A stretch of DNA of 64,000 nucleotides from an uncultured bacterium (lineage in GTDB: Bacteria; Bacteroidota; Bacteroidia; Bacteroidales; CAIXTV01), in the NCBI GenBank assembly GCA_903922465.1, contig CAIXTV010000130.1, positions 3,315 through 67,314 of the forward strand, written 5' to 3'. Within the stretch, counting starts at the first letter, position 1. The number at the start of each line of letters is the position of its first letter. Below, piece by piece: positions 16,709-62,700 of the stretch. A model generated the notes under the pieces. The model was not told the DNA's origin. It ran no database searches and worked only from the letters and a program-made list of their open reading frames with translations. Made by a program: the position numbers and the translations under genes.

Positions 16709-16890
16709 GGAAGAACTCGCCATTCCTAAATTCAGAATGGCGAGTTGTTCCAGAAGAAGTGGGCATTCCTCGTTCAGAATGGCGAGTTGTTCCAGAAGAA
16801 GTGGGCAGTCTGGATTCAGAATGGCGAGTTGTTCTGCTAGAAGTGGGCAGTTTGGATTCAGAATGGCGACTTCTCGGAGAAGAACTCGCC
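16709..16890. repeat. 42-bp tandem repeat, about 3.8 copies, bounded by hairpins.
   Basis: Units start at 16731, 16773, 16815 and 16857 (ttcagaatggcgagttgttccagaagaagtgggca...). 16709-16725 is the inverse complement of the unit core, giving a 17-bp stem with one mismatch. Confidence 0.9.
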
Positions 16891-17217
16891 AAAATCAGCA
16901 AAATCATCCCAGTTTTAGAAGATGATTTCCTCGTTTTACAAACGATATGTCGAAGTGTTTTACCCCCTTGCTGTGATTATTTTTTCCTACACCTTATATT
17001 TATATAGCACATCCATCATCCAAAAAAAAATTCCATCCTTGTTCTGGATGAAATTTTTCTTTTCCTTACATTTTAATCTCTATATCAATAATATCAAAAT
17101 ATTTTGCAGTTGAAGTAGGCTAATGAGGCCTTACAACTTAATGTAATGGGAAAACATCAGCATTTTTTCACTGTAGAAGTCCCACATCCTGATGCAAATC
17201 GGCTTTTTGGTTAGGCC

Positions 17218-20200
17218 TTATTCCCACATGGGGATGAGGGGCGAATGCATTTCTTCGCCAAACTGCCTTGCATCCTTCAAATTAAACCTTTTGTGGAGCT
17301 GAATGTAGCAATCGAAGGTAACTTTTCCCTCCTGGTCGGCCTTGAAATTGGTGTTCCAATAATTATTCATGGCATAGAGGAACAAATCGGAGGTCATGGA
17401 TATGCGGTCTTTCCATGCACGCGAGCCTTTGTTGAGGGGCCTTTCGTCGGTGATACTTCCCAACTCAAACAGAGCGGCTTGGGGGCTGCAAACGGTGGCT
17501 CCGTTGTCGTCGTTCGAGATATCTATCCAGCGTTGAACCGAGAAAAAGTCCTTGTTAGACCCGGGTATCTGACTTTTTCCCGGTATAAAGAAGGTGTCGG
17601 AGATGCCCACGCGGTCGAGCGGCCCCGAAATGTCGAAAGGAAACACAATGTGCAGGCCTTCTTTTTCTCTGATGGCCTTCTTATCGATTGTGCAACTGAG
17701 TTTTATGTAGTTCAGCCCATGATAAAAGCTAATCTGATAGCTAACTTGATGTGTTCCCTCCATATTGCAGTTTATCTTGATGGTTTTTGTGATGATGCCG
17801 TTTTCGCTTTCCTCAATATTTTTCACAACAGAGGTGGTGCGATTGGCAGGGTCGAAACCTTTGACATACAATGCCTGATTCAAGCCCTTGAAATCGGCAG
17901 TATTCACCCATTCTTTGTCTAAATACTTGAGTTGTCGCAAAGCGCCGCTGAGGCTGTCTATCGTATAGCTGTATTGGTCGATAGGCATTTCTTGTTTTCG
18001 CTTGCTCGACACAAAAGTAAACTTCTTGCTGCCCGAAGCCGCCACGTTTTTCGCCAAAAAACAAACATTGCCGTTGTTCAAATGCTGAATAAAGCTGAAT
18101 TCACCGTTTTCGTCCATCACTCCATTGCCCTTAATGTTGCTTGGGAGGCTAATTTCGACATAAGCCGAGCGCATATAGGGCAAGGTGTTGTAAACCACCA
18201 GGGTTTTTGGGCTAGGGTTTTCGGGAAGTAAGACTTTTTCGATTAGGGCGATGTATTTTTTGGTCGAATCGATGAAAGCTTTTTTGTAGTTCCACTGATT
18301 GATGGCGAAAGCATCGTCGGGGGCCGAAATACTATTCCATGCACCCCAGGTGTGCTCGTGAAACATCACCACATTTTTGCGTGCTTCGATGAAGTTTTCG
18401 GGCTGAACCGTTTTTTCGGGCTTGATGTTGGCCAACAATTGCAGTTGCTCAACTTTGTCGCTCAGTATTCTGTTCTCGCATTCTTCAGCCGCCGTTGAAT
18501 ATGCCCCATCTTCCCAGTAGGGAGTGAAGTCGCCACTCAAAACAGGCAAATCTTTGCCATATTTTTGTTCGAAACGCTGCATCATATCGTCCACATTGGC
18601 GATGATAATCTTAGGTGAGACATATTTTAGGTTCCAATCGCGCACAAAATTGCTTAAATTGGTATCCAATGGGCCGTTGTCCGACTTAATGGTGTATCTG
18701 AGCTGAATCATATCGTAAGGATATTGGGCCGAATCGAGTTTATTGATATAAATGCTCAACTTTTCCTTCATCTTATTGCCCAATTCAGGAAAAGGAATGC
18801 CGTGAAAGGCGCCATAACCGAGGCCTGCCGTCCAAAGTAAGACTTTTTCGTTGCTCTTGGTCGATTTCCAATAAAAAGGTTTGTCGCCTAACTTGCGATA
18901 AATCGAGCCAATTCGCTCGCCCCCGTCAGGTGTTTCGGGAATATAATTGGGTCCGTTCGATAAATATTTAAATCCGCCGGCCAAAAGGGCATCAACGGTG
19001 CTCCAACTAATACCCGGAATATCACTCAACATGGCAGAGGTGATGTTAAAGCCATATTTCTTCTTCAAAATGCCTGCATATTCACTAATCCAGCCAAGTT
19101 CAGGGGCCGAACACAGGCCTGTCATCACGCCTGCATAGAATGATGTTAAACAAATGCTGTTATTTTTTACGGCATCGATGAATCTTGCTTTGTCTTTGCC
19201 CCTTGCGTTGGCAAAAAAGTATTCAACAGGCCAAAGAGTCTCTTCATTCCACACAAAACGGCTGCCTTTAGGGTAATTTGCCGTGCGGTCAATCATATCC
19301 AAGGCATCCATGATGTTCTGTTGCTGTATTTTCATCACATCATCCTGAAAATGTGAGTAACCAATGTCGTTATGGCTGTGATGTATGATGTCAACTTCTC
19401 TCCTAATCACCGGATTTTGCATGACGCTAAGCTCATACACCACCTTATTCCCCAATTTCAGAACAGTATTAAGCTGAAGGGGGGCGCTCACGGTATCTAA
19501 AGGAATTTCAAGACTGTTAAAACCTTCATTAACCGCCACTTCAATTGGCTTTTGATTGATGATGAGGGTGATTTTCTTCTCATTTGGATAAATATGATCG
19601 ATGTAAACCTGAAGAAGTTGCTTAATGCCTTTGTCGGTGTTCATTAAGAAAGGAGTTGCGGTAATGAGTGCTTTCTCTTTATAAGGATATCGGAAAACCA
19701 TAAACCAATCGTTGCGGTTTTCGGCCATTCCTGTCATCGAAAGACTCAAAGGCTTGCCCGCAGTGAGGAGTTTACGGGGAACACGCAAATACATATCGCC
19801 AAAAAGGTCTTTATGCACATCGGTTTTTGTGGCCGAGAAAACCACTTTCACCGAATCTTTACCCGAAAACGACCAAACTAAAGGAGGTTTTTGGTTTTGT
19901 TGGATGGTGATTTTCAGGTAATTTACCCCGTTGATGCTGAGTTGGAAAGAACTCACCCCAAAGCTGGTACCACTCGAGTGTCCCGATAGCCAATAGAAGT
20001 AATAATAATCCTTATCGAGCACTTGTGGCAGACTTTCAGTTTCCCAACTAATGGTTTTCTTGCCATCGGTGCATCTTGTGAGCAAGGCATCCTTGGCAAA
20101 ATAGGCTGATGATGAATAATAGTTTAAAATTTCGCCCGAAATGTCCTTTTCAAAGCCATTCATTAGGTTTTGTTTCCCGAAAACGGGGAGGTCGCGCTGT

Positions 20201-20274
20201 GCAAACAGCCCTTGTTGGCTCAAAATGAGCATTAAGGTGAGCAGAAGTCTTGTGCTTAGTTTTGTTATTTTCAT
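17218..20274 (-). CDS. Secreted GH38-like glycoside hydrolase (alpha-mannosidase-like), 1018 aa.
   Basis: Signal peptide. The metal-site-like motif DIIHHSHNDIGYSH resembles the GH38 N-terminal HSHxD signature, and the size fits. The family assignment is tentative. Confidence 0.5.
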   Translation of the reverse strand: MKITKLSTRLLLTLMLILSQQGLFAQRDLPVFGKQNLMNGFEKDISGEILNYYSSSAYFAKDALLTRCTDGKKTISWETESLPQVLDKDYYYFYWLSGHSSGTSFGVSSFQLSINGVNYLKITIQQNQKPPLVWSFSGKDSVKVVFSATKTDVHKDLFGDMYLRVPRKLLTAGKPLSLSMTGMAENRNDWFMVFRYPYKEKALITATPFLMNTDKGIKQLLQVYIDHIYPNEKKITLIINQKPIEVAVNEGFNSLEIPLDTVSAPLQLNTVLKLGNKVVYELSVMQNPVIRREVDIIHHSHNDIGYSHFQDDVMKIQQQNIMDALDMIDRTANYPKGSRFVWNEETLWPVEYFFANARGKDKARFIDAVKNNSICLTSFYAGVMTGLCSAPELGWISEYAGILKKKYGFNITSAMLSDIPGISWSTVDALLAGGFKYLSNGPNYIPETPDGGERIGSIYRKLGDKPFYWKSTKSNEKVLLWTAGLGYGAFHGIPFPELGNKMKEKLSIYINKLDSAQYPYDMIQLRYTIKSDNGPLDTNLSNFVRDWNLKYVSPKIIIANVDDMMQRFEQKYGKDLPVLSGDFTPYWEDGAYSTAAEECENRILSDKVEQLQLLANIKPEKTVQPENFIEARKNVVMFHEHTWGAWNSISAPDDAFAINQWNYKKAFIDSTKKYIALIEKVLLPENPSPKTLVVYNTLPYMRSAYVEISLPSNIKGNGVMDENGEFSFIQHLNNGNVCFLAKNVAASGSKKFTFVSSKRKQEMPIDQYSYTIDSLSGALRQLKYLDKEWVNTADFKGLNQALYVKGFDPANRTTSVVKNIEESENGIITKTIKINCNMEGTHQVSYQISFYHGLNYIKLSCTIDKKAIREKEGLHIVFPFDISGPLDRVGISDTFFIPGKSQIPGSNKDFFSVQRWIDISNDDNGATVCSPQAALFELGSITDERPLNKGSRAWKDRISMTSDLFLYAMNNYWNTNFKADQEGKVTFDCYIQLHKRFNLKDARQFGEEMHSPLIPMWE

Positions 20275-20307
20275 AAGTTGCAGTATTTAGATTTTAATCA
20301 ATTCGAA

Positions 20308-28820: not shown

Positions 28821-28894
28821 AGCATTGATTCTCTTTAATTAAATTCATTTTTTATAGAGGAAATTTTAAATTTGAGACTTAAGATTTAAAGCAA

Positions 28895-29270
28895 AAATCC
28901 TGGGATATTTAGAAAAAATCTTGGGATTTTAAGTTGAAATCCTAGAATATTTTGCAGAAATCCTAGAATATTTTGCAGAAATCCTAGAATATTTTGCAGA
29001 AATCCTGGAATTTTAAGTTGAAATCCTAGAATATTTTGCAGAAATCCTGGAATTTTAAGTTGAAATCCTAGAATATTTTGCAGAAATCCTAGAATATTTT
29101 GAAAAAATCCTAGGATTTTAAATTGAAATAGTGGGATTTCAACTTAAAATAGTGGGATTAAAATTTGAAATTTCAGGATTTTAACTTGAAATAGCGGTAT
29201 AAAAAATTTTTATAGCCGGATTTCAAATCGAAATAGTGGCATAAAAAATCAAAATAACGAGATTTAAAAT
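28895..29270. repeat. Phased 21-bp tandem array organised as a long imperfect palindrome.
   Basis: aaatcc recurs at exact 21-nt steps from 28895 to 29105 (11 units). ggattt recurs at about 21-nt steps from 29113 onward (about 8 inverted units). The centre is the perfect palindrome aaatcctaggattt (29105-29118). Confidence 0.9.
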
Positions 29271-29430
29271 CAGGATTCGCTATAAATATTGATCCATACG
29301 AGAAAAACGCCTTCATTTACATCTTCAATAATCCTTCATTCATTAGCCAAAACTGAGGGCTAACTCTTAGTAATTTCAAACTTAGGTCTTATTTTCTTAT
29401 CCAGAACATCAGTAATTGATATTTTCTTTT

Positions 29431-29457: not shown

Positions 29458-32400
29458 ATGAAAAAAATATTACTAATATCTGTTATTACTTTCTTTTTAT
29501 TTTCAATCATTACTGTTTCTTTTGCCGGGGAAATTCATTTCAATAAATCCGCTAAACAGGAATTATTAATAATAGAAAACAGTTCTTCGAAACTAATCGT
29601 TAAGAACACATTAAACACATTGGATTATACCCTTGTGAATACTTCAAAAGGGTCACATATCCGCCTTTCGGTTCCCGGATATGCAGCTTCTGAAAAAGTA
29701 GGCATGCCACTATTACCTGTTAACAAATCACTGATAGAAATACCGCTAGGCGCAACCATTAGCTATAAAATCACTTCATTTACGACTGAAGAAATTAAGT
29801 TGGCTGATTTCGGCATCGTTCAACCTTTGTTTCCGGCTCAAGCTCCCATTTCCAAAAGCTTTACGGGTGAAGTTGATTTAGTAAAGAATTCGCAAGCCTA
29901 TCAAAGTCAGGCTTATTTAAATTCAGATTTGGTGAAGATTGACAAAATAGGCATTATGCGAGGGCTCAATCTTGCCCGCTTGAATATTTGTCCGTTTCAG
30001 TACAATCCCGCGAAAAACTCCTTATTAATTTATCACAATATGGTTGTTGAAATTAGTTTTTCAGGGGCTGATGAAACAGCAACTATCGAACTCAAGAAGA
30101 AAAACAATTCGCCTTATTTCGATGCAGTGCAATCCACAGTGATTAATTATAAACCTCTTTTGCAAAAAGATTTGATTACCAAAGCCACAGTCAAATATGT
30201 TATTGTTTCCAACCCTATGTTTCAGGCAACACTTCAGCCTTTTATTCAGTGGAAAACCAAAAAGGGGTTCAATGTAATTGAGGCTTACACAAATAATCCA
30301 CTTGTCGGCAGCACAACCACTTCAATAAAAGCCTATTTGCAAGGGCTATATAATGCAGGAACTCCTGCCGACCCTGCTCCTTCTTTTGTTTTGTTTGTTG
30401 GCGACATTGCTCAGCTTCCTTCCTTTGATGGCACAACAGGAACTCATCCAACTGACCTTTACTATTGCGAATACACAGGCGATTTCCTACCCGAAGTGTA
30501 TTATGGAAGATTTTCTGCTGAAAATGTAGATCAATTGGCTCCACAACTCAGCAAAACCCTAGAATATGAACAATACCTCATGCCTGATCCTTCTTTTCTG
30601 AATCAAGTGGTGATGATAGCAGGGGTCGACGCTGGAATGGCTCCTACTTATGGTAATGGTCAAATTAATTATGGCACTCAAAATTATTTCAATTCCACTT
30701 TTGGACTTACTTCACACACCTACTTATACCCTGCATCTGAAACTTCAGCAGCTCAAATCATACAAGATGTGAACAATGGTTGTGGTTTTGCAAATTACAC
30801 TGCACACGGCTCTCCTTCCGGTTGGTCTAGCCCTGGTTTCTCGGTAAGTGATGTTAGTGGACTTACCAACAGCCATAAATATCCATTAATGGTAGGCAAT
30901 TGTTGTTTAACAAATAAATTTGATGAAACCGAATGCTTTGGCGAAGCCCTATTAAGGGCAACCAACAAAGGAGCCATTGGCTATATAGGTGGTTCGAACA
31001 GCACCTATTGGGATGAAGATTATTTTTGGGGAGTTGGAGTTAAAGCCATAAGTGCTAACCCTTCCTACTTAGCTTCCGCATTAGGCTCTTACGACAGGAC
31101 TTTTCATTCGCATGGCGAAACTTATTCAAATTGGTTTGTAACCCAAGGTCAAATGGTGATTGCTGGTAATTTAGCCGTTACACAAGGTTCTGCCGGCAGC
31201 ATGAATTACTATTGGGAAATCTATCATTTAATGGGCGACCCTTCTCTAATGGTGTATTATTCGGTTCCTCCTACCCTAACCAATAGTTATGCTCCATTCA
31301 TTCCTCTTGCTGCAACAACCTTTTCTGTTACTACCGAACCATACGCATATGTTGCTGTATCAATGGGAGGCATTTTACACGGAGCTGATTTCGCTGATTC
31401 AACTGGGATATGCAATCTAAACATTCTTCCTTTTAATATTCCCGGCTCAGCCGATGTAGTGATGACAAAGCAAAATCGTCAGCCTTTTATAGGCACAGTA
31501 AATATTCAAACTCCAACAGGCCCTTATGTGGTTTATAAATCTCATATTCAAAATGACCCCACAGGCAACAACAACCACCTTGCCGATTTCAATGAAATCA
31601 TTTCTCTTGATGTTACCCTGAAAAATTATGGCATAAACGACACTCTTGTTTCTGCCATTTTATATACTGCTGATACCATGGTAAGCATTCTTGACAGTAC
31701 CCATGCATGGGGTTTCATTGCTCAAAACGATTCCCTTGCCAAGTCGAATGCATTTTCTTTTAAGGTTAAGAACTTCATTACCGATCAACACAATGTTGTT
31801 TTTAATATTAAAGTGACGGATAATTTAGGGAATATTTGGATATCCACATTAACAGTAAAACTGAATGCTCCAGCTTTGGCCGCAGGAAATATGATAATTG
31901 CTGATAATGGAAATCACAACGGCAGGCTCGACCCAGGTGAAACGGCCACAATAACAATCACCAACCATAATTACGGTCATTCAATAGCAACAAACACAAC
32001 TGGGACCTTGTCAACCCAAAGTTCATTGATTACTATAACTAATCCAACGTCCCCAGTCGGGAATCTTCCAATTGGGGGAGATGGCAGTGCAACATTTAAT
32101 GTCATTGTTAGCAGTTCTGCTACATTAGGAACTTATCTTCCTTTGAACTACAACGTTGAATCTACCCCTTACCAAAACAGTAAAATATTTAGCACTATGA
32201 TTGGTTTGGTTTCTGAAGATTGGGAAACAGGAAGTTTTACAAAATTCAGCTGGACCCAAGTGAATACTTCTCTTTGGTCAATATCAAATATTCTTCCTTA
32301 CGAGGGTGTTTATTGTGCACAATCGGGCGCTATTTCAGACAACGAATCTAATGCCATACAAATATCAATGAATGTGTTAGCCGATGATAGTATTTCATTT

Positions 32401-32913
32401 TACAAAAAGGTTTCTTCCGAACTAAATTACGATTTCCTTGAATTTTATATTGATAATGTAAAAATTGATGAATGGTCAGGAGTCCAATCATGGAGTCGTG
32501 TTGTGTATCCTGTAATTTTCGGCAACCATACTTTTAGGTGGACTTATAGCAAAGACATCTCTTCAATTGGAGGAGAAGATAAAGCTTGGGTGGATTATAT
32601 CTTATTTCCTCCTGCTATTATTTCAAATGGGCTAAATGAAACTTCCAATGAGGATAATCAATTGATTATTTATCCTAACCCTGCAAAGGATGCTGTTCAA
32701 ATTTCATTTAACATGAATCAGTCTGCAAAAGTAGAAGCATCAATATATAATTCATTAGGGAAAAAACTTATTGTTATTCAAACATACAAAGAATTAGGGG
32801 TAGGAAATCAAATCATTAATATGTCTACCGAAAGCTTAACCTCAGGTATTTATTTTGTAAAACTAAACATTGGGAATAATCAGAAAACCATAAAGTTGAT
32901 TATTAACAAGTAA
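29458..32913 (+). CDS. Peptidase C25 (gingipain-like cysteine protease) with a T9SS type A CTD.
   Basis: YVIVSNPMFQATLQPFIQWKTKKGF; catalytic-type ANYTAHGSPSGW and PLMVGNCCLTNKFDE; C-terminal IYPNPAKDAVQISF...GIYFVKLNIGNNQKTIKLIINK. Confidence 0.85.
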   Translation: MKKILLISVITFFLFSIITVSFAGEIHFNKSAKQELLIIENSSSKLIVKNTLNTLDYTLVNTSKGSHIRLSVPGYAASEKVGMPLLPVNKSLIEIPLGATISYKITSFTTEEIKLADFGIVQPLFPAQAPISKSFTGEVDLVKNSQAYQSQAYLNSDLVKIDKIGIMRGLNLARLNICPFQYNPAKNSLLIYHNMVVEISFSGADETATIELKKKNNSPYFDAVQSTVINYKPLLQKDLITKATVKYVIVSNPMFQATLQPFIQWKTKKGFNVIEAYTNNPLVGSTTTSIKAYLQGLYNAGTPADPAPSFVLFVGDIAQLPSFDGTTGTHPTDLYYCEYTGDFLPEVYYGRFSAENVDQLAPQLSKTLEYEQYLMPDPSFLNQVVMIAGVDAGMAPTYGNGQINYGTQNYFNSTFGLTSHTYLYPASETSAAQIIQDVNNGCGFANYTAHGSPSGWSSPGFSVSDVSGLTNSHKYPLMVGNCCLTNKFDETECFGEALLRATNKGAIGYIGGSNSTYWDEDYFWGVGVKAISANPSYLASALGSYDRTFHSHGETYSNWFVTQGQMVIAGNLAVTQGSAGSMNYYWEIYHLMGDPSLMVYYSVPPTLTNSYAPFIPLAATTFSVTTEPYAYVAVSMGGILHGADFADSTGICNLNILPFNIPGSADVVMTKQNRQPFIGTVNIQTPTGPYVVYKSHIQNDPTGNNNHLADFNEIISLDVTLKNYGINDTLVSAILYTADTMVSILDSTHAWGFIAQNDSLAKSNAFSFKVKNFITDQHNVVFNIKVTDNLGNIWISTLTVKLNAPALAAGNMIIADNGNHNGRLDPGETATITITNHNYGHSIATNTTGTLSTQSSLITITNPTSPVGNLPIGGDGSATFNVIVSSSATLGTYLPLNYNVESTPYQNSKIFSTMIGLVSEDWETGSFTKFSWTQVNTSLWSISNILPYEGVYCAQSGAISDNESNAIQISMNVLADDSISFYKKVSSELNYDFLEFYIDNVKIDEWSGVQSWSRVVYPVIFGNHTFRWTYSKDISSIGGEDKAWVDYILFPPAIISNGLNETSNEDNQLIIYPNPAKDAVQISFNMNQSAKVEASIYNSLGKKLIVIQTYKELGVGNQIINMSTESLTSGIYFVKLNIGNNQKTIKLIINK

Positions 32914-32952
32914 GAATATTACCAATAATCCACACAATTGAACTTTAAAAAC

Positions 32953-32985
32953 AAAAAAACCTTCTTGAATCAAGAAGGTTTTTTT
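32953..32985. terminator. Bidirectional rho-independent terminator.
   Basis: A7 run, stem ccttctt / aagaagg, T7 run. It lies between the convergent C25 and oxidoreductase genes. Confidence 0.7.
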
Positions 32986-33002
32986 ATTTGAATACTTTAA
33001 CT

Positions 33003-33554
33003 TTAAAGAGTATGAACAGGATAAATAATATTCTTTCCTGTTTCAATTGCTTTTTCATTCTCCGGAATCATACCATGATGACGTTTAGGAAGTGATTTCT
33101 CTAATCCTTTGTGCATAAACTCAGGTAAAATAATAGGCTTTAATTTCAGATAACCACCAAGTACAATCATGTTAAACACTTTTGATATACCTAATTTTGC
33201 CGCTTCATCATTAGCATCTATTCTGTAAATGTTAATATCTTTACGTTCAGGATGTCTAGTTATTCCATTGCCGTCATAAACCAACAAACCACCTGGTTTA
33301 ACAGTGCTTTCAAACTTATCCATCGATTGTTGGTTGAGGATAATTGCGGTATCATATTGATGTACAATTGGAGAACTAATGCGTTCATCGCTTATAATTA
33401 CTGTGACATTTGCAGTCCCTCCTCTCATTTCAGGCCCATACGATGGCATCCATGAAACTTCTTGGTTTTGCATAACGCCTGAATAAGCGAGTATTTTCCC
33501 CATTGAAAGGACACCTTGTCCTCCAAATCCAGCTATAATAATTTCTTCTGTCAT
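33003..33554 (-). CDS. 2-oxoacid:ferredoxin oxidoreductase, gamma subunit.
   Basis: MTEEIIIAGFGGQGVLSMGKILA and the four-gene context. Confidence 0.85.
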   Translation of the reverse strand: MTEEIIIAGFGGQGVLSMGKILAYSGVMQNQEVSWMPSYGPEMRGGTANVTVIISDERISSPIVHQYDTAIILNQQSMDKFESTVKPGGLLVYDGNGITRHPERKDINIYRIDANDEAAKLGISKVFNMIVLGGYLKLKPIILPEFMHKGLEKSLPKRHHGMIPENEKAIETGKNIIYPVHTL

Positions 33555-33589
33555 AATTTCAATGTTTTTTAAAAGCTTAATTCAAAAAT

Positions 33590-34360
33590 TTATTCAACAG
33601 GTAATTTAATGTCACCCAAAGGATAGAAAGGAAACATATTTTCTTCCATCCATACATTGGATTGAACTGGAGTCATTTTCCAACCCGAGTTACAATTCGA
33701 AACAAATTCAACAAAAGAAAGTCCTTTATCAAGCTTCTGATTTTCAAATGCAATGCGGATTGCTTTTTTTGCTTTACGAACCGCTGATGGTGTATGAACA
33801 GCTTGACGTGTTACGTATCTTACACCTGGTAATTGAGCAACTAGTTCAGTTATTTTAAGAGGGTTTCCCATCATTTTCACATCTCTTCCGTAAGGGCAAG
33901 TTGATGCTTTCATTCCAGGAAGCGTAGTTGGTGCCATTTGACCTCCTGTCATTCCATAAATTCCATTGTTTACAAAGAAAATCGAAATGTTTTCACCTCT
34001 ATTGCATGCATGAATAGTTTCTGCAGTTCCAATTGCAGCTAAATCTCCATCACCTTGATAAGTAAATACATATTTTTCTGGCATTACACGCTTAACTCCT
34101 GTTGCAACAGCTGGAGCTCTACCATGAGCTGCTTGTTGCATATCTACTTCCAGAAATTCATAAGCTAAAACAGAACAACCTACAGGTGCAATACCTATAG
34201 TTTCCGCCTGTATACCCATTTCTTCAACCACTTCCATAATAAGTCTATGAACGGTTCCATGTCCACATCCTGGACAATAGCTAAGTGCTTTTGGTGTAAG
34301 TAAACTAGTTCTTTTATAAACCAGATTTTCTTCTTTAATTATATCTTCTCTTGTTAACAT
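33590..34360 (-). CDS. 2-oxoacid:ferredoxin oxidoreductase, beta (TPP-binding) subunit.
   Basis: YCPGCGHG and YQGDGDLAAIG. The track start at 34375 is TTG; I use the ATG at 34360. Confidence 0.87.
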   Translation of the reverse strand: MLTREDIIKEENLVYKRTSLLTPKALSYCPGCGHGTVHRLIMEVVEEMGIQAETIGIAPVGCSVLAYEFLEVDMQQAAHGRAPAVATGVKRVMPEKYVFTYQGDGDLAAIGTAETIHACNRGENISIFFVNNGIYGMTGGQMAPTTLPGMKASTCPYGRDVKMMGNPLKITELVAQLPGVRYVTRQAVHTPSAVRKAKKAIRIAFENQKLDKGLSFVEFVSNCNSGWKMTPVQSNVWMEENMFPFYPLGDIKLPVE

Positions 34361-34364
34361 ATTA

Positions 34365-35447
34365 CTATCCTCCAATTATTTTTTGTATCAAAGCTGTTAG
34401 AACTTCATCTGGATTGGGGATAACACCACCAAATCGCCCAAAGTATTCCACTTTATTTTTACCATTTACTGCTAAACGAACATCTTCAACCATTTGACCT
34501 AAATTCATTTCCACTACCAAAAAGCCTTTAACCTGATCTGCCAATTCAGAAATTCGTTCTGATGGAAATGGGAAAAGGGTAATTGGTCTTAAAAGTCCCA
34601 CTTTAATTCCTTTTGCACGTGCCATATCAATTGACTTTTGGCAAATACGGGCACTCGACCCAAAAGCTACCAAAATATACTCTGCATCTTCGGTCGCAAT
34701 TTCCTCAAAGCGAACATCCTCTGCTTCCATTCTGATATATTTGTCACGCAAATCACAAACATGTTTTTCTTGGACATATGGGTCAAGATAAAGAGAGGTA
34801 ATAATATTTCTTTCTCTATCAGGAGTTCTCCCGGTAGTTGCCCAAGGGGTATTTTTAATAATCTCTTCTTGAGTTAAGCGAGCTTGAGGTTCAAAAAGTT
34901 CAACTTTCTCCATCATTTGCCCAATAACTCCATCGGTTAATATCATTACCGGATTGCGATATTTAAAAGCAAGTTCAAAGCCGAGAGGAACAAAATCGCA
35001 CATTTCCTGAACAGATGCAGGAGCTAATACCAACATACGATAATCTCCATGCCCTCCTCCTTTTGTTGCCTGAAAATAATCAGATTGAGAAGGCTGTATC
35101 GTTCCTAAACCAGGACCACCACGAACCACATTAACAATAACACAAGGCAATTCGGATCCTGCAATGTAAGAAATACCTTCCATCTTGAGACTAATCCCAG
35201 GGCTGGAAGAAGAGGTTAAAGTACGTTTTCCACAAGCAGCAGCGGCATAAACCATATTAATAGCTGCCACTTCGCTTTCAGCTTGTAAAACAACCATCCC
35301 TGTTTGTTCCCAAGGCTTTTCTGCCATTAAGTATTCTAGAATTTCAGACTGGGGTGTAATAGGATATCCGAAATAGGCATCTGCTCCTGCCCTAATGGCA
35401 GCTTCAGCTATTGCTTCATTCCCTTTCATTAATTTTAATTCTTTCAT
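34365..35447 (-). CDS. 2-oxoacid:ferredoxin oxidoreductase, alpha subunit.
   Basis: MKELKLMKGNEAIAEAAIRAGADAYFGYPITPQSE. The upstream track extension overlaps the delta subunit gene. Confidence 0.87.
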   Translation of the reverse strand: MKELKLMKGNEAIAEAAIRAGADAYFGYPITPQSEILEYLMAEKPWEQTGMVVLQAESEVAAINMVYAAAACGKRTLTSSSSPGISLKMEGISYIAGSELPCVIVNVVRGGPGLGTIQPSQSDYFQATKGGGHGDYRMLVLAPASVQEMCDFVPLGFELAFKYRNPVMILTDGVIGQMMEKVELFEPQARLTQEEIIKNTPWATTGRTPDRERNIITSLYLDPYVQEKHVCDLRDKYIRMEAEDVRFEEIATEDAEYILVAFGSSARICQKSIDMARAKGIKVGLLRPITLFPFPSERISELADQVKGFLVVEMNLGQMVEDVRLAVNGKNKVEYFGRFGGVIPNPDEVLTALIQKIIGG

Positions 35448-35466
35448 CGTTGGAAATATTTTATGA

Positions 35467-35694
35467 TTATTCGTTAGTTTTAACTCTATAAACCGATATT
35501 GCACCATCAGGACATACAATTGCGCAATTCACACAACCAGTGCATCCTTCTGTTACTTCTACGGCATAACGATATCCTTTTTTGTTAACTAATTTTGACA
35601 TTGAAAGGACAGAAGCTGGACATGCACCAATACATATTTCACAACCTTTACATCTTTCAATATCAATAACTAGAGTTCCTTTTACTTTAGCCAT
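35467..35694 (-). CDS. 4Fe-4S dicluster ferredoxin-type delta subunit.
   Basis: Two CxxCxxCxxxCP motifs (CKGCEICIGACP, CTGCVNCAIVCP). Confidence 0.82.
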   Translation of the reverse strand: MAKVKGTLVIDIERCKGCEICIGACPASVLSMSKLVNKKGYRYAVEVTEGCTGCVNCAIVCPDGAISVYRVKTNE

Positions 35695-35786
35695 TGTAAT
35701 ATATTTTAGTTTTAAACTTTTATTTGTTTTTGTAGTCCTGCAAAGAAAACAATTTTAATCGGAACTATATGGTTTTTTTTCAATTA

Positions 35787-37109: not shown

Positions 37110-37133
37110 TTGATTATATGTTATAGTGAAGAT

Positions 37134-37832: not shown

Positions 37833-38127
37833 TTTTATTAATTATGGAAATATTTCCACCGTTGACAAATTTAAACGGATTTTTATTAACTCCAAGAATT
37901 CAACGAAAATATTTTTCGAAATATATTTACTGACCATTTTTGCCAGCCTTTTAAATTGCCTATTGACTCTTAAATATGCTTGTAATCAAATGAATAATAA
38001 TTCTAAATAATTCTCTTTAGCTAATTTAAACAAAATGAAATCAAAATTAAAAAGCACAATCCTTCCCAATTTTTCTTTTGAAGTTTTCAAAAAACGGCTT
38101 ATTACGCTTTTCTATAAAATTATACTG

Positions 38128-38135
38128 TAATTTTG
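38128..38135 (+). promoter_or_regulatory. -7 box TAATTTTG.
   Basis: 22 nt separate the box from the ATG at 38158. Confidence 0.4.
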
Positions 38136-38157
38136 TCCTGAAAAAAAGACATAATTA

Positions 38158-41525: not shown

Positions 41526-41538
41526 GCCCACAAATGAT

Positions 41539-41850
41539 GGTTTGAAACGTCATTGCGAGGAACTAACCTGCCTAACAGGCAGAGAAGGACGAAGCAATCT
41601 CAAACCTAAAAAGCTGTTTAGCTGTTTAGTAGTTTAGGCTTTTAGGAAGAAAAAGTCCCAAGTCCCAAGTCCCAAATTTCAAATTCCAAGACCCAAGGGG
41701 TGAAATCGCTTACTTGAAACTTCAATGCAAGGGGAAATGGCTTGTTTGAAACGTCATTGCGAGGAACTAACCTGCCTAACAGGCAGAGAAGGACGAAGCA
41801 ATCTCAAGCCTAAAAAGCTGTGTAGTAGTTTAGGCTTTTAAGAAGAAGGA
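41539..41850 (+). repeat. About 1.7 tandem copies of a ~190-bp REP-like composite unit (left arm of a foldback structure).
   Basis: gtttgaaacgtcattgcgaggaactaacctgcctaacaggcagagaaggacgaagcaatctcaa occurs twice (at 41540 and 41744), with cccaagtcccaagtcccaaatttcaaattccaag between the copies. Confidence 0.88.
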
Positions 41851-42131
41851 CCAAAAATCAGATTTTTAATTGAAAATAGGGGGATTGGGTAAGAGTTATT
41901 AGGTTAATGGGTGGATTTGAGGTGAAGGATATGGTGATTTCAGGTGCAAAATGGGCTAGACTGATTTCCGATTATATTTATCTTTCTAATGTTTTGGCAC
42001 TGTTTCTGTAGTTGAAAATTTTTCAATACATCACTTCAATATTTTGTTTTTGAATAGCTATTGTTTACCCACAGCATTTTGCCCTATTAGGTTTTTGATG
42101 AAATTTTGCTTTCAAATGGGAAAATAAACAT

Positions 42132-42420
42132 GTTTGTCGTTATGACGAGCAGCATCATAGTGAAAAATAAGTTTGTTTGTCACAGTGATTGGTTGAATCA
42201 TAGCATAAAATAAGTTTCTTTATCGTCATGAACCGGAGCGTCATAGTGTAAAAGGAGTTTCTTTATCCTTATGAACCGGAGAGTCATCCTATAAAAGGAG
42301 TTTCTTTATCGTCATGAACCGGAAATTCATAGTATAAAAAGAGTTTCTTTATCGTTATGAACCGAAGAGTCATAGTATAAAAGGAGTTTCTTTATCGTTA
42401 TGAACCGGAGCGTCATACTT
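42132..42420. repeat. 43-bp tandem repeat, about 6.8 copies.
   Basis: Units start at 42132, 42171, 42214, 42257, 42300, 42343 and 42386 (gtttctttatcgtcatgaaccggagcgtcatagtgtaaaagga). Confidence 0.88.
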
Positions 42421-42987
42421 AATTACGTAGGGATTCAGAGGACAACCACCATTTTTTTCCTCCTCCTGAGCGGCGAATTTTTACGATGAGGATAATTTGC
42501 AATTATCATCATTATTAGATGCATTCTGTTACAAAACAACACGATTTAAACCTTAATAGAAAAACCACTAAAACACCTAACTCCAACCTTATTAGCATTT
42601 CGAGAGGAGAGAAGGTAATAAGCTTAGGGTTAATAAGGCCTTGGCTTTTCTATTAAGGTTTGGAAGGGGAAGAAGACTTTTATTCAATTGACAATTGAGA
42701 ATGGAAAATTGACAATGATTTTTTACCGATATATCATCCCTGACGGGATTTGGAGAATTAAAAATGGGTTGTATGGTAACTCTTAAATGGTAAATGGATT
42801 GATACAAAGTAATAATTTATGGGTTTGTGTTTATTGATATTATATCAGGCTTGTGAGAGAAAGATGTAATTAGCGAATTTATTTTATCATATTTTTGCAA
42901 GAGTAAATCAGCAATTAAATCATAAAAATCAGCGTTTCTTGAATCAGCGTCATCAGCGTTCTATTTTTCCAACTAATTAAATTTGCA

Positions 42988-43710
42988 AACAGCTTTTTGG
43001 CTTTGAGATTGCTTCGTGCTATGACGTTTCAAATGGGCGGTTTCGTCTTGCAATACCGTTTCAAATAAACGGCTTCCCCTCTTGGGACTTGGAATTTGAA
43101 ATTTGGGGCTTGGGTCTTTTCTTCCTAAAAGTCTAAACTACTAAATGTCTAAACAGCTTTTTTGTTTTGAGATTGCTTCGTCCTTCCCTGCCTGTTAGGC
43201 AGTGAAGTTCCTCGCTATGACGTTTCAAATGGGTGGTTTCGTCTTGCAATACCGTTTCAAATAAACTGCTTCCCCCCTTGGGACTTGGAATTTGAAATTT
43301 GGGGCTTGGGTCTTTTCTTCCTAAATGTCTAAACAGCTAAACAGCTTTTTGGGTTGGAGATTGCTTAGTCCTTCCCTGCCTGTTAGGCAGTGAAGTTCCT
43401 CGCTATGACGTTTCAAATGGGCGGTTTCGTCTTGCAATACCGTTTCAAATAAACGGCTTCCCCCCTTGGGACTTGGAATTTGAAATTTGGGGCTTGGCTC
43501 TTTTCTACCTAAATGTCTAAACTACTAAATGTCTAAACAGCTTTTTGGCTTTGAAATTGCTTCGTCCTTCCCTGCCTGTTAGGCAGTGAAGTTCCTCGCT
43601 ATGACGTTTCAAATGGGCGGTTTCGTCTTGCAATACCGTTTCAAATAAACTAATCCCCCCCTTGGGACTTGGAATTTGAAATTTGGGGCTTGGGTCTTTT
43701 CTTCCTAAAA
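42988..43710 (-). repeat. About 3.8 tandem copies of the same ~190-bp unit, inverted relative to 41539..41850 (right arm).
   Basis: The anchor ga(g/a)attgcttcgt occurs at 43005, 43169, 43357 and 43553. The reverse complement aligns with the left-arm unit at roughly 85-90 percent identity by eye. The last unit contains the stop codon of the 43705..45510 gene. Confidence 0.88.
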
Positions 43711-55107: not shown

Positions 55108-55296
55108 GGCGGACGAAAAAATCAAGAGTACGGAAAATGAATTCAAGAGTGGGAATAAAGAAATCAAACTGGCGGACGAAAAAATCAAACTGGCGGACGA
55201 AAAAATCAAATTGATGGATGTTGAAATCAAAAGAGCGGAAGGCAAAAAATACTAGGCGGACGATGAAATCAAGAGGGCGGATGATGAAATCAAGTG
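55108..55296. repeat. Phased 21-bp tandem array, 9 units.
   Basis: The ggcggacg-type unit heads lie at 55108, 55171, 55192, 55213, 55234, 55255 and 55276, all multiples of 21 apart. The unit is ggcggacgaaaaaatcaaact. Confidence 0.88.
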
Positions 55297-56744: not shown

Positions 56745-56768
56745 TGTTTTTGATATTAATTTAGGTGC

Positions 56769-56907
56769 TTAGGCATTTAGACTTTTAGGACAGTCGTTTT
56801 CTACCTAAACTCCTTATATTATACAGTTTATTAATTGCATTTTCAATAGTATTATGTTTAATTTCTTCATTCTAAAAGACTAAAAGTCTACAAGACTAAA
56901 TGCCTAA
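56769..56907. repeat. Inverted repeat in the spacer between the two coiled-coil paralogs.
   Basis: ttaggcatttag+acttttag (56769-56788) matches the reverse complement of ctaaaagtctacaagactaaatgcctaa (about 56880-56907), apart from an 8-nt insertion in the right arm. Confidence 0.7.
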
Positions 56908-56911
56908 AATC

Positions 56912-57814
56912 CTATTTAAGCTCAAATTGTCCCTGACCTATTTCATTATCCTCAAGGAAAACATTTACTTTATAAACCCCCTTCATGGCTTCATCTTTAG
57001 GATTTTGTTTTTCCCAATACATGCAAACATTCACAGCGGCATTCTGATAATCAACTTCCTTTTTTATTGAATATTGCAAACGTTGACCTTTATACATGAA
57101 AGAATACACCTCGTCGCTACCTAGGGTTACGATTTTATTATCAGGGCGGGCAATTCTGATGAAAACAGATCGGTTGCCCGGTTTAGCAACAGGGTTTTCG
57201 GCAAGCGTAAAACATATCTTTATCTTTTCAACCCTGCGGGCTTTATCAACAGCCTCTTCTTTTTTCCCTGACGACTTCATTCTTATAGGTTGTGCTGTCA
57301 CATTATATGCTTTAAGCACGGCAGCCATGTTTACTTTTTCGGTCAATTCATCTTTATCTTTAACCAATAATTGAGTCTTATCTTTCTCTTTGCTAAACTC
57401 ACCTTTGATGAAAGTGTTTTCTTCGTTCAATTGTTTGTTAACACGATACAAGGAATCAATTTGAGAAATATAACCTTGAGTCATATTGCGTAAAAGCGAT
57501 AATTTCTTCTTGATTTTATTATAATCGGCCTGGGTGCTAATAAGTTTTTCAATCTCCATAGCATCAGCCTGAATGAGACTATCTTTAGAAGTAAGCTTAT
57601 TTGAAAGACTGCCATATTCCTCTTTTATTTTTGTGTGTTCTTTCATCAAGGAATCTAATTCAGTTTTTAGGCCAGTGTTTAAACTTGAAGTTTCTTGCTG
57701 TTGTACAATAATAGTATTCACCCGCGAAGTTTGAGTAATCAATAAGAGAGCAAGAATAATAATGACTATCGCTTCGATAATGATTATGGTTCTGAGTTTT
57801 TTAGTGTTTTCCAT
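56912..57814 (-). CDS. Membrane-anchored coiled-coil protein with a C-terminal beta-rich domain (paralog 2).
   Basis: The architecture matches paralog 1. AAVLKAYNVTAQPIRMK..VEKIKICFTLAENPVAKPGNRSVFIRIARPD aligns with the paralog 1 C-domain. The track start at 57820 is TTG; I use the ATG at 57814. Confidence 0.6.
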   Translation of the reverse strand: MENTKKLRTIIIIEAIVIIILALLLITQTSRVNTIIVQQQETSSLNTGLKTELDSLMKEHTKIKEEYGSLSNKLTSKDSLIQADAMEIEKLISTQADYNKIKKKLSLLRNMTQGYISQIDSLYRVNKQLNEENTFIKGEFSKEKDKTQLLVKDKDELTEKVNMAAVLKAYNVTAQPIRMKSSGKKEEAVDKARRVEKIKICFTLAENPVAKPGNRSVFIRIARPDNKIVTLGSDEVYSFMYKGQRLQYSIKKEVDYQNAAVNVCMYWEKQNPKDEAMKGVYKVNVFLEDNEIGQGQFELK

Positions 57815-59392: not shown

Positions 59393-59427
59393 TTATAGAT
59401 AGATTTTGGTGAGAATTTCCCAACTTC

Positions 59428-61782: not shown

Positions 61783-62205
61783 TTACAATTGCTCCCCTTT
61801 TCCCGTAAAAAGGGCTTCTTTTGTTTTCTTTCCGGCTTTATATTCAATTTCGTATTGCATAGGATGGTTTTTTTGGTCGATTTGAGCAATTGCGATAATC
61901 ACCCTATCTTTCCCATACTTCGAATAGAAAGCATCTTTCACCATATCAGGCAGTTCGCTCAGCAAAATGGGAGTTTCGGTTTCGACACATTCGCCTTCAG
62001 CAGTGAAATTAGCCGAGCAGGCCTTCCCGTTTAACATAAATGAGGCTTCGAACTCCTTGCTGCCTTCTTTTTCCCATTTAACATGGGTGGCATTGGCAAA
62101 TTTAAGTTTAAATAAATTTTTAACCTTTTCGGGAGCCTGAGATTTGCCTACATTTATACCTAAAAAAAGCATGATTGCGAGACTTTGAAAAATGATTTTT
62201 TTCAT
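61783..62205 (-). CDS. PepSY-like (putative beta-lactamase-inhibitor-like) periplasmic protein.
   Basis: Signal peptide, then two half-repeats (KVKNLFKLKFANATHVKWEKEG..EFEASF and LPDMVKDAFYSKYG...YEIEYK). Confidence 0.65.
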   Translation of the reverse strand: MKKIIFQSLAIMLFLGINVGKSQAPEKVKNLFKLKFANATHVKWEKEGSKEFEASFMLNGKACSANFTAEGECVETETPILLSELPDMVKDAFYSKYGKDRVIIAIAQIDQKNHPMQYEIEYKAGKKTKEALFTGKGEQL

Positions 62206-62490
62206 TTTAGAAGTGTATAATTTGTTTGAAGCAAAAATGGAAAATTATGGAAGCAGCAAACGCAAGATATTATGGAAATTTCGATAAAATGAGGCTTTAA
62301 TTTTGATCTAAAACTTCAAATCAATCAAAAATAGGGTCGGAAAACATCTAAAAATAGTGTTTTTTTCATTTGTTTTTGGTTTTGGAAATAATTTTGTTGA
62401 AAAACATGAAAATTTGAAAATCGCTGAAACTCTCATTCTCATTGGGTTTGAAAACATGAAGTGATTTTGAAAACCATTTTTATATGATAA

Positions 62491-62700
62491 ACAAAAAAGA
62501 TAAACATATAAAAATCGATTTTTACAGCAAAACCTAAAATGATAAACCTATAAAAATTCATTTTCATAGAAAAACCTAAAATGAAAACCATATAAAAATT
62601 CATTTTCATAGCAAAACCTAAAATGATAAACCTATAAAAATCGATTTTCATAGGAAAACCTAAAAAGATAAACATATAAAAATGGATTTTTATATGAAAG
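62491..62700. repeat. 42-bp tandem array, 5 units.
   Basis: Units start at 62491, 62533, 62575, 62617 and 62659. Each contains an aaaaat(c/t/g)(g/c)attttt pseudo-palindrome. Confidence 0.88.

What the first reader, a model, noticed from the sequence alone, without database searches (positions are those of the whole stretch)
16709..62700. Recurrent theme: five unrelated intergenic tandem arrays in 64 kb, all with periods of 21, 42 or 43 bp, several of them palindromic
The arrays at 16.7 kb (42 bp), 28.9 kb (21 bp), 42.1 kb (43 bp), 55.1 kb (21 bp) and 62.5 kb (42 bp) share no sequence. All have periods at or near two or four helical turns, and all sit in intergenic spacers.

Four of the five lie upstream of a promoter; the exception is the 42.1-kb array, which sits between two convergent gene ends. 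Several meet their own inverse complement at a boundary.

This density and period bias is not what I expect from random slippage. It suggests one of two things: a lineage-specific mechanism that generates helical-phase duplications, or selection for phased, face-of-helix elements such as curved DNA or cooperative binding of a nucleoid or regulatory protein.
Basis: inference. Interest (0 to 1): 0.6.

Follow-up and report, generated by a model that had tools for sequence, protein, structure and literature searches.

The report
Helically phased 21-bp intergenic minisatellites
One uncultured freshwater Bacteroidales lineage carries an unusually dense set of unrelated non-coding tandem repeats whose unit lengths are almost all 21 bp or a multiple of it (two or four turns of the DNA helix), which points to a protein or a mechanism that measures DNA in helical turns.

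Summary
Five mutually unrelated, non-coding tandem arrays with periods of 42, 21, 43, 21 and 42 bp lie in the five longest gene-free spacers. Shuffled windows give no comparable array.

The bias extends beyond the window. Another strain and the sister species carry six more arrays with a 21- or 42-bp period (plus one 125/126-bp repeat), all with different sequences. A cousin species has none in 55 kb. In the lineage, 10 of 12 arrays are exact multiples of 21, against 3 of 12 in 1.3 Mb of background (p=0.006). Array density is about 11 times higher.

Periods of 20-23 and 41-44 bp are also common among non-coding arrays elsewhere, for example the 23- and 41-nt repeats of Porphyromonas gingivalis. 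So the period class is general; the exact 21 and the density are lineage-specific.

The basic module is 21 bp and often dyad-symmetric. The 42-, 63- and 84-bp periods are higher-order units, and 43 bp is a 22+21-nt inverted pair. Arrays stay in strict register, sit at synteny-block boundaries and turn over between sister species. Coding, intrinsic curvature, RNA structure and assembly artefact do not explain them.

My best reading is phased protein-binding or ruler-generated minisatellites, and this is inferred, not shown.

The parts
16709..16900 (.). A1: 42-bp units x3.3 (ATTCAGAATGGCGAGTTGTTCCAGAAGAAGTGGGCAGTCTGG), bracketed by inverted half-units at 16709-16725 and 16875-16891. The unit is a diverged dimer of 21-mers.
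   Evidence: TRF one search reports period 42 at 89% and a 21-bp sub-period at 60%. Global dyad symmetry is 28/42 (p<0.0005). The ssDNA fold gives z = -7.35. The spacer length is identical (1025 bp) in 9 other assemblies.
28842..29283 (.). A2: about 21 units of 21 bp in one register with no indels. The left part alternates two unit types (42/63-bp higher-order repeats). The right part carries the flipped core. Columns AT(1-2), AAAT(12-15, part of the recurrent GAAAT) and G(20) are nearly invariant.
   Evidence: See (D1; column heterogeneity p<0.0002). (I1) shows 91-nt arms meeting at 29090/29091. The array lies between lepA and porU. The gene after lepA differs in the sister and cousin species.
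42133..42433 (.). A3: 43-bp units x7 (TTTATCGTTATGAACCGGAGAGTCATAGTATAAAAGGAGTTTC). Each unit is an inverted pair of ~21-22-nt halves, lying between convergent genes.
   Evidence: See (D6); TRF reports 0% indels. The array sits inside a 2.2-kb spacer bracketed by inverted 'E' repeats.
55108..55296 (.). A4: 21-bp units x9 (GGCGGACGAAAAAATCAAACT) with a 63-bp higher-order repeat and no dyad symmetry.
   Evidence: See (column heterogeneity p=0.0006). The array is identical in another sample. It is absent upstream of the orthologous nitroreductase gene in the sister species.
62428..62890 (.). A5: 42-bp units, core array 62470-62694 (84-bp higher-order repeat), with degenerate units in the same register on both sides. 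Each unit carries a ~22-bp near-palindrome, CTATRAAAAT-NN-ATTTTYATAG, with a variable centre.
   Evidence: See (D4, D5). The local palindrome has p=0.0005. A second strain (L118) has the same copy number, and all 5 of its substitutions in the array fall in variable columns.
43018..43709 (-). Each unit holds a split copy of a widespread hairpin motif plus 8-bp and 7-bp microsatellites.
   Evidence: See (D3, I1-I7).
41540..41847 (+). E array, inverted partner: two 204-bp units. Together with 43018-43709 it brackets the segment that carries A3.
   Evidence: See (D18, I1-I7). Copy number differs in other assemblies: 1 unit in L045 and about 3 in L044.

Best explanation
**What they are.** These are non-coding minisatellites of one lineage-specific class. 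The building block is a 21-bp module, two turns of the helix, and it is often dyad-symmetric. The 42-, 63- and 84-bp periods are dimers or higher-order repeats of that module, and 43 bp is an inverted 22+21-nt pair.

**How they behave.**
- Arrays appear and disappear quickly in the spacers that separate conserved gene blocks.
- They grow by gain and loss of whole units, through unequal exchange or slippage, which keeps the register.
- They then decay by substitution.

**What sets the period.** The length is sharply quantised and the register is strict. Cores are conserved while linkers or centres are free. I think this is best explained by a protein that contacts every module on the same face of the helix. 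Such cooperative binding is known from iterons and centromere arrays. It would either select the unit length or template it.

**What they are not.** They are not conserved cis-regulators of the neighbouring genes.

**Shown:** periodicity, module structure, non-coding status, lineage restriction, turnover and position at block boundaries.
**Inferred:** protein binding, and its role in fixing the period.
For: **Period and density.**
- 10 of 12 lineage arrays are exact multiples of 21 bp, against 3 of 12 in the background (Fisher p=0.006).
- Density is 9.8 per 100 kb against 0.9 per 100 kb (p=1e-7).
- The cousin species has 0 arrays in 54.7 kb (P=0.005 at the lineage rate).

**The module is 21 bp.**
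- The sister's 42-bp array runs directly into pure 21-bp units (L127:5729-5908).
- A1 has a 21-bp sub-period.
- A2 and A4 show 42/63-bp higher-order repeats.

**Register.** TRF reports 0% indels in A2, A3 and A5 and in all three sister arrays apart from their 84- and 21-bp overlapping rows. Units hold one register over 21 units in A2 and about 12 in A5, including the degenerate flanks.

**Conserved cores.**
- Column heterogeneity gives p<0.001 in A2, A4 and A5.
- Dyad cores with variable centres or linkers appear in A5, A2 and L044, and in L009, L027 and L067 of other MAGs.
- Between two strains, all 5 substitutions inside A5 hit variable columns, and at least 2 of them cannot be gene conversion.

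**Turnover.**
- A4 is absent at the orthologous site in the sister.
- The sister has its own arrays elsewhere.
- Both species carry a 21-bp array right after lepA, yet these share no detectable sequence.

**Block boundaries.** 3 of 3 boundaries of two conserved blocks carry arrays, against 0 of 14 internal spacers (p=0.0015).

**Genome-wide helical signal.** Outside the arrays, the window's own AA/TT periodicity is 10.6 bp (z=10.5). Two periods are 21.2 bp and four are 42.4 bp, which fits 21 and 42/43.
Against: - No binding protein is identified.
- Every array has a different core, so either many proteins or one shape-reading protein is needed.
- A4 has no dyad symmetry.
- Column heterogeneity could partly reflect higher-order repeat history rather than selection.
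- The strain-polymorphism test rests on 5 substitutions.
- Rapid turnover and patchy presence look more like selfish or neutral DNA than a host function.
- The sister species has arrays but only weak general AA/TT periodicity (z=2).
- Only about 123 kb of the lineage could be examined.
Confidence: 0.4

Rival explanations
1. They are minisatellite cores of several families of non-autonomous mobile elements (MITE-like), as with BrickBuilt and PgRS in Porphyromonas gingivalis. Each family would have some 10-20 copies per genome, so a 64-kb window shows only one member of each. The period would be inherited from the parent elements, for example from transposase-binding sub-repeats.
For: - There is a precedent in the same order. 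P. gingivalis has intergenic 23-nt and 41-nt tandem repeats inside MITEs, with dyad symmetry and conserved versus variable positions in the unit (PMC4596501).
- The arrays sit in expanded spacers at synteny breakpoints.
- They are absent from orthologous sites in relatives.
- A3 lies in a segment bracketed by inverted E arrays. In another assembly the same bracket holds a different 21-bp array next to a different gene (L044).
- L043 lacks the window sequence just left of A5.
- A1 has a candidate 18-nt inverted repeat, 16632-16649 with 16994-17011.
Against: - The five spacers share no leader or tail sequence.
- The flanks of 10 arrays share no motif beyond chance.
- No IS5-type terminal repeat is present.
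- The window has no transposase gene next to any array.
- No second copy of any array unit appears in about 123 kb of the lineage.
- The A1 inverted repeat is AT-rich and not significant by my estimate.
- This reading does not by itself explain why unrelated families all have exactly 21 or 42 bp.
Confidence: 0.3
2. A lineage-specific mutational 'ruler' makes tandem duplications of a fixed 21 bp. An example would be staggered cuts by a nuclease, recombinase or integrase followed by fill-in. The arrays would then be neutral by-products with no function.
For: - The period is exactly 21 in arrays of unrelated sequence. These include one with no dyad symmetry (A4) and several predicted to be straight.
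- The trait is restricted to two sister species and absent in the cousin.
- The arrays are associated with rearrangement breakpoints.
Against: - No known bacterial enzyme makes 21-bp duplications (my knowledge).
- No candidate gene lies in the window.
- A 43-bp period exists.
- Conserved cores, and strain substitutions confined to variable columns, suggest constraint.
- Other Bacteroidales show 22-, 23- and 42-bp arrays of the same design.
Confidence: 0.15
3. The arrays are selected as intrinsically curved DNA. Any bend in a 21-bp unit adds up in phase.
For: A2, A3 and A5 are among the 1.5% most curved 147-bp windows of the sequence in a wedge model. Changing the period by 5 bp abolishes the predicted curvature.
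Against: - A1, A4, L044 and L113 are predicted straight, no more curved than column-permuted versions of themselves (fractions 0.83, 0.88, 0.71 and 0.49).
- Combined over seven arrays the effect is not significant (Fisher's method computed by hand, p about 0.2).
- The model parameters were taken from memory of the Bolshoy/Trifonov 1991 table.
Confidence: 0.05
4. The arrays are amplified hairpins acting as RNA or single-stranded DNA, for example multiplied terminators or REP-like elements.
For: - A1's left edge forms a 17-bp GC-rich hairpin. On the minus strand it is followed by CTCCCTTTTT, which looks like a terminator.
- A3 lies between convergent genes.
- A5, the centre of A2 and L044 fold better than shuffles (z = -3.6, -4.3 and -2.4).
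Against: - The left half of A2, A3 and A4 do not fold better than shuffles (z = 0.2, -0.2 and 0.4).
- No Rfam family matches.
- REP families are single-sequence and high-copy with alternating orientation, which is not seen here.
Confidence: 0.07
5. The pattern is chance, coding remnants (21 bp = a heptad of codons) or an assembly artefact.
For: 21, 42, 63 and 84 are multiples of 3. A4 reads as ADEKIKL-like heptads in one frame. Short-read contigs break inside A5.
Against: - Shuffles give no such arrays.
- Stops occur in the frames; A2 has no ORF above 47 aa and A3 has a 43-bp period.
- Independent assemblies give the same sequence and copy number.
- The units are diverged, which an assembler cannot invent.
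Confidence: 0.02

Closest known systems
BrickBuilt (23-nt repeats) and MITEPgRS/464 (41-nt repeats) of Porphyromonas gingivalis (PMC4596501)
   Same: They occur in the same bacterial order. They are strictly intergenic, with head-to-tail units and no spacers. Unit lengths are near two and four helical turns. Units show dyad symmetry and a mix of conserved and variable positions. Elements reach up to about 1 kb.
   Different: BrickBuilt is one sequence family present 19 times, with shared leader and tail and IS5-like terminal repeats. Here every array has a different unit. No shared flanks or terminal repeats were found. The period is exactly 21 or 42 rather than 22, 23 or 41.
Plasmid and phage iterons, and centromere arrays such as F sopC (12 x 43 bp, each with an inverted repeat); from my own knowledge
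   Same: They are direct repeats of about 17-22 bp spaced at about 21-23 bp, or at 43 bp. They often hold dyad-symmetric cores, are bound cooperatively by one protein, and differ in sequence between replicons.
   Different: Those arrays sit next to the rep or par genes whose products bind them, at one or a few per replicon. Here there are about 10 arrays per 100 kb of chromosome, next to housekeeping genes. No rep or par gene is adjacent and there is no DnaA-box cluster.
REP/BIME elements of enterobacteria and pseudomonads (my own knowledge)
   Same: They are imperfect palindromes clustered in intergenic regions, are lineage-specific, and often lie between convergent genes.
   Different: REPs are one or a few high-copy sequence families with alternating orientation and a partner RAYT transposase. 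The arrays here are direct, in strict register and mutually unrelated.
Pneumococcal BOX elements (boxA-(boxB)n-boxC, boxB 45 bp; my own knowledge)
   Same: They are intergenic modular elements with an internally amplified unit of about four helical turns.
   Different: BOX is a single family with conserved end modules. No conserved end modules were found here.
Eukaryotic satellite DNA with higher-order repeats and concerted evolution (my own knowledge)
   Same: The period is conserved while the sequence turns over between close species. They show higher-order repeat structure and sit at rearrangement-prone sites.
   Different: The scale differs: hundreds of base pairs here against megabases there. 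The bacterial context also differs, and no chromatin protein is known to set the period.

Membership tests
BrickBuilt/PgRS-type MITE with internal minisatellite | Tandem ~23- or 41-nt units without spacers, strictly intergenic | tested here: met
   The arrays have 21-, 42- and 43-bp units head to tail in spacers of 595-2179 bp.
BrickBuilt/PgRS-type MITE with internal minisatellite | Conserved leader and tail segments shared by the copies | tested here: not met
   Spacers share no similarity outside their own arrays. The flanks of 10 arrays share no k-mer beyond chance.
BrickBuilt/PgRS-type MITE with internal minisatellite | IS5-like terminal inverted repeats (GAGACCTTTGCA type) and target-site duplications | tested here: not met
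   The pattern with 1 mismatch gives 2 hits, both inside genes, against 3 expected by chance. The only candidate terminal repeat, around A1, is AT-rich and not significant.
BrickBuilt/PgRS-type MITE with internal minisatellite | Many copies of the same unit sequence dispersed in the genome | not testable with these tools
   Only about 123 kb of the lineage was reachable, and no second copy was found in it. The genome itself could not be scanned.
CRISPR array | Repeats separated by unique spacers of similar length, with cas genes nearby | tested here: not met
   Units abut without spacers. No cas gene is among the flanking genes.
Iteron-type replication origin or sopC/parS-type centromere | The array lies next to the rep or par gene whose product binds it, or next to DnaA boxes and an AT-rich unwinding element | tested here: not met
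   The neighbours are lepA, porU, sufT, a nitroreductase, a PepSY-like gene and similar. There is no DnaA-box cluster.
Iteron-type replication origin or sopC/parS-type centromere | Units in helical phase with a conserved recognition core | tested here: met
   Periods are 21, 42 and 43 bp. Cores are conserved and linkers variable.
REP/BIME | One high-copy palindromic family in alternating orientation, with a RAYT partner gene | tested here: not met
   The arrays are direct and mutually unrelated. No IS200/IS605-like gene was seen among the Pfam-annotated genes of the fetched loci.
Protein-coding repeat (heptad or other) | An open frame across the array with a period that is a multiple of 3 | tested here: not met
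   A2 has stops in all frames. A3 has a 43-bp period. The other ORFs are under 90 aa with low-complexity products.
Known structured RNA (Rfam 15) | A match to a covariance model | tested here: not met
   Only RNase P and tRNA-Phe reach the gathering score. Nothing lies on the arrays even at E<=5.

The most novel reading that the evidence does not exclude
A genus-level Bacteroidales lineage has acquired a protein that measures DNA in two-helical-turn steps. It could be a filament-forming nucleoid or partition-type protein, or a recombinase or nuclease with a 21-bp stagger. The protein would create or stabilise 'bacterial satellite DNA': unrelated 21-bp-quantised arrays that mark the boundaries of gene blocks and take part in genome rearrangement.
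Probability: 0.2. Interest if true: 0.8.

Novelty: new variant of a known kind. Interest (0 to 1): 0.55.

Why it matters
Intergenic minisatellites in bacteria are usually treated as isolated curiosities or typing markers. Here a whole class of unrelated arrays shares one exact unit length equal to two helical turns. The class is about ten times denser than in other genomes. It is confined to two sister species and sits at the joints between conserved gene blocks.

If the period is set by a protein, two things follow. It would be a tractable case of sequence-independent, phase-dependent DNA recognition shaping a bacterial genome. It might also explain why 21-23- and 41-43-bp repeats recur across Bacteroidales, including the MITE-borne repeats of P. 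gingivalis.

If the period is set by a duplication mechanism, that mechanism would be new.

Either way, the claim can be tested directly with complete genomes and simple binding assays.

Tried and rejected
- **Coding or heptad-repeat pseudogenes:** rejected. Frames carry stops, one period is 43 bp, and the ORFs are spurious.
- **Assembly artefact:** rejected. Independent assemblies are identical and the units are diverged.
- **Hypervariable copy number:** not seen. The available samples are nearly clonal, so the test is weak.
- **Intrinsic curvature as the common cause:** not supported.
- **Single-strand or RNA structure as the common cause:** not supported. There are no Rfam matches.
- **Common ancestry of the arrays:** no significant cross-hits with profile HMMs, only weak hints. 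The shared heptamer TGAAATC is not enriched.
- **Shared flank motif or IS5-type terminal repeat:** none found.
- **Replication origin:** no DnaA-box cluster.
- **Metagenome scan with the E-element core.** It was meant to fetch more loci of this genome. Instead it returned 65 contigs of unrelated organisms that carry a widespread hairpin motif. I used these as background only.
- **Viral scans with five unit cores:** only single chance hits.
- **TonB-receptor homologue search:** no sister orthologue, so the orthologous site of A5 could not be examined.
- **Literature searches:** nothing on 21-bp intergenic repeats or helical-phase minisatellites in Bacteroidetes beyond the P. gingivalis work.

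Full report
**What the window is.** The window comes from a low-GC (37%) Bacteroidota chromosome. It carries type IX secretion genes (PorU, PorP/SprF, a SprB-like adhesin), RNase P RNA class A and tRNA-Phe. The same species is assembled in many ENA metagenome assemblies; the sample names suggest stratified freshwater lakes, which is my inference. The closest genome in GTDB is 'MAG: Bacteroidota bacterium isolate ELA062' (GCA_037144095.1), with PorU 80%, LepA 96% and nitroreductase 91% identical. I call this the sister species. A second relative, the cousin, has PorU 72% and LepA 93% identical. All other homologues are at or below about 55% for PorU.

**Checking the observation.** TRF finds all five arrays at the stated places and with the stated periods, plus higher-order periods of 63 and 84 bp.
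- Lag autocorrelation of each spacer peaks at 21, 42 or 43.
- Thirty block-shuffled windows gave no row with score >=100.
- The arrays occupy the five longest gene-free spacers of the window, 595-2179 bp; only the 664-bp spacer before tRNA-Phe has no array.
- They are not coding and match no Rfam family.
- They share no detectable sequence.
- The statement about inverse complements at boundaries is correct for A1, A2 and A5, and A3 has a hairpin inside each unit by my reading of the sequence, though neither test detects it. A4 has no dyad symmetry.

**Anatomy.** Printed in register, A2 shows about 21 units of 21 bp with no indel.
- In A2, columns AT (1-2), AAAT (12-15, part of the recurrent GAAAT) and G (20) are nearly invariant and the rest is free. 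Its right half carries the flipped version of a 15-bp imperfect palindrome rather than a simple inversion.
- A5 keeps a ~22-bp near-palindrome with a variable two-base centre at 42-bp spacing over about 12 units. This includes flanks where the rest of the unit has decayed.
- A3 is an inverted pair of 21-22-nt halves.
- A1 is a diverged dimer of 21-mers, bracketed by inverted half-units.
- Column heterogeneity is significant in A2, A4 and A5 (p<0.001). Part of this may reflect higher-order repeat history.
- A second strain (L118, 99.0% identical) has the same A5 copy number. All five of its substitutions in the array fall in the most variable columns, and at least two alleles are not present in any other unit, so they are not gene conversion.

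**More of the same lineage.**
- Another assembly of the same species (L044) has, behind the same sufT gene and the same E repeats, a different array: 8 units of 21 bp (GAGATRAAGCATCCGAAGCTT), followed by a different gene.
- The sister species has a 21-bp array of about 10 units (L113:9899-10109).
- It has a 21-bp array of about 11 units directly after lepA (L127:11873-12125).
- It has a 42-bp array that runs into pure 21-bp units (L127:5729-5908).
- It has a 42/84-bp array whose unit is a 32-bp perfect palindrome plus a 10-bp linker (L127:21029-21197).
- It also has a 125/126-bp E-like repeat.
- None of these is detectably similar to any window array.
- The cousin species has no array in 54.7 kb, and its spacers are compact.

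**Statistics.** I counted non-coding arrays with >=3 copies and period >=15 bp.

| Set | Sequence examined | Arrays | Exact multiples of 21 bp |
|---|---|---|---|
| Lineage (window species + sister) | 122.8 kb | 12 | 10 |
| Background (other Bacteroidales, diverse metagenome contigs, viral contigs) | 1335 kb | 12 | 3 |
| Cousin species | 54.7 kb | 0 | - |

- The excess of exact multiples of 21 gives Fisher p=0.006.
- The density ratio is about 11 (p=1e-7).
- The chance of zero arrays in the cousin at the lineage rate is P=0.005.
- The broader class of 20-23 and 41-44 bp holds 8 of the 12 background arrays. Some have the same design: L009 with 42 bp x9 and 22 bp x8, L027 with 23 bp x4, and L067 with 21 bp x9, each with a conserved dyad core and a variable centre or linker.
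- P. gingivalis has 22-, 23- and 41-nt intergenic repeats (PMC4596501).

So the two- and four-turn class is general. The exact 21 and the density are what is special here.

**Position.** Protein-level synteny shows two conserved blocks.
- porU-sufT (29.4-41.5 kb) is conserved in the cousin and partly in the sister.
- The 601-aa gene to nitroreductase (43.7-54.9 kb) is conserved in the sister and partly in the cousin.
- Their three boundaries in the window carry A2, E/A3 and A4. None of the 14 internal spacers carries an array (p=0.0015).
- The neighbours across each boundary differ between species. The sister's L113 array lies at the sister's own breakpoint.
- The genes around A5 have no sister orthologue.

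The arrays are therefore not conserved regulators of particular genes. The nearest Bacteroidetes-type -7 boxes lie roughly 100-340 bp (about 340 bp for A1) from the arrays.

**Tests of mechanism.**
- Intrinsic curvature, using a wedge model whose parameters I recalled from the Bolshoy/Trifonov table, is predicted for A2, A3 and A5. It is not predicted for A1, A4, L044 or L113.
- Single-strand folding is exceptional only at the A1 edge, the A2 centre and A5.
- I found no common flank motif, IS5-type terminal repeat or DnaA-box cluster.
- Copy number did not vary among the nearly clonal samples available. Short-read contigs do break inside A5, and one contig (L043) diverges from the window just left of A5.
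- With the arrays removed, the window still shows a strong AA/TT periodicity of 10.6 bp (z=10.5). The sister shows a weak one and the cousin none. Twice and four times 10.6 are 21.2 and 42.4 bp. In coding DNA, however, such a signal can come from protein structure.

**Interpretation.** The only features common to all arrays are the quantised period, non-coding status, position between gene blocks and lineage restriction.
- I think the most likely account is a class of fast-evolving minisatellites built from a 21-bp module. The unit length would be fixed by a protein that contacts each module on one face of the helix.
- A closely competing account is a set of MITE-like families, as in P. gingivalis. 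This cannot be excluded without the whole genome, because one window would see only one member of each family.
- A pure mutational ruler is a third possibility.
- None of these three is demonstrated.

**Compared with what is known.** The arrays work most like iteron or centromere arrays, and they look most like the BrickBuilt and PgRS minisatellites. They fail the defining features of both families that could be tested: no adjacent rep or par gene, no shared leader or tail, and no terminal repeats.

Noticed in passing
window 41540-41847 and 43018-43709; loci L048-L112: The ~200-bp 'E' repeat contains a split copy of GTCATTGCGAGGAAC...GAAGCAATC. The exact 20-mer GAAACGTCATWGCGAGGAAC occurs in 65 JGI metagenome contigs of GC 23-65% from many habitats. 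There it is usually one arm of a 25-30-bp hairpin with a variable loop, sometimes next to microsatellites. It has no Rfam match, and a full-text search for the sequence found nothing.
   Followed up: partly
L044:2289-3677, compared with window 41526-43704: Another assembly of the same species has the same sufT gene and E repeats. However, it holds a different central segment with a 21-bp array, followed by a different downstream gene (an FAD-binding protein). This could be a cassette-like variable region between inverted E arrays, or recombination between dispersed E copies. L045 has one 204-bp unit instead of two.
   Followed up: partly
L043:1-135, compared with window 62373 onward: Two samples carry a contig in which the sequence upstream of the PepSY-like gene diverges from the window at 62372/62373, about 55 bp before the first degenerate unit of A5 (62428). 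It shows a terminator-like hairpin instead. This may be a presence/absence or replacement polymorphism of the A5 segment.
   Followed up: partly
window 1-5430: There are three and a half tandem copies, about 1.5-1.6 kb apart, of a gene pair. One gene encodes a ~220-aa protein and the other a ~290-aa protein with a T9SS C-terminal sorting domain. The copies are 70-94% identical at the DNA level.
   Followed up: no
whole window with arrays removed: AA/TT dinucleotides show a 10.6-bp periodicity (z=10.5 against triplet shuffles). It is weaker in the sister (11.2 bp, z=2) and absent in the cousin. It may come from DNA phasing or from protein structure in coding regions. I did not separate coding from non-coding sequence.
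   Followed up: partly
window 56760-56790 and 56888-56914; also 41600-41650 and 43117-43160: Runs of 8-bp units of the type CTAAANNN (CTAAAAGT, CTAAACAG, CTAAATGT) occur as an inverted pair. They flank the spacer between the two DUF8429/DUF8428 paralogues and also lie inside every E unit. The sister has the same microsatellite in a 125/126-bp repeat (L127:6201-6506).
   Followed up: no
window 30000-40000: Cumulative GC skew has a local minimum near 38 kb, at a divergent gene pair. There is no cluster of DnaA boxes there or elsewhere in the window.
   Followed up: partly
L129:7826-10150: An unrelated organism encodes a 774-aa LepA with a duplicated EFG_C + LepA_C C-terminal part, next to an integrase and an IS1595 transposase.
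   Followed up: no
L009:1704-2082 and 11036-11217; L027:4793-4907; L067:1911-2099: Other MAGs (two Bacteroidales and one unknown low-GC organism) carry arrays of 42, 22, 23 and 21 bp of the same design: a conserved palindromic core, a variable centre or linker, and a long non-coding spacer. This suggests the architecture is widespread.
   Followed up: partly
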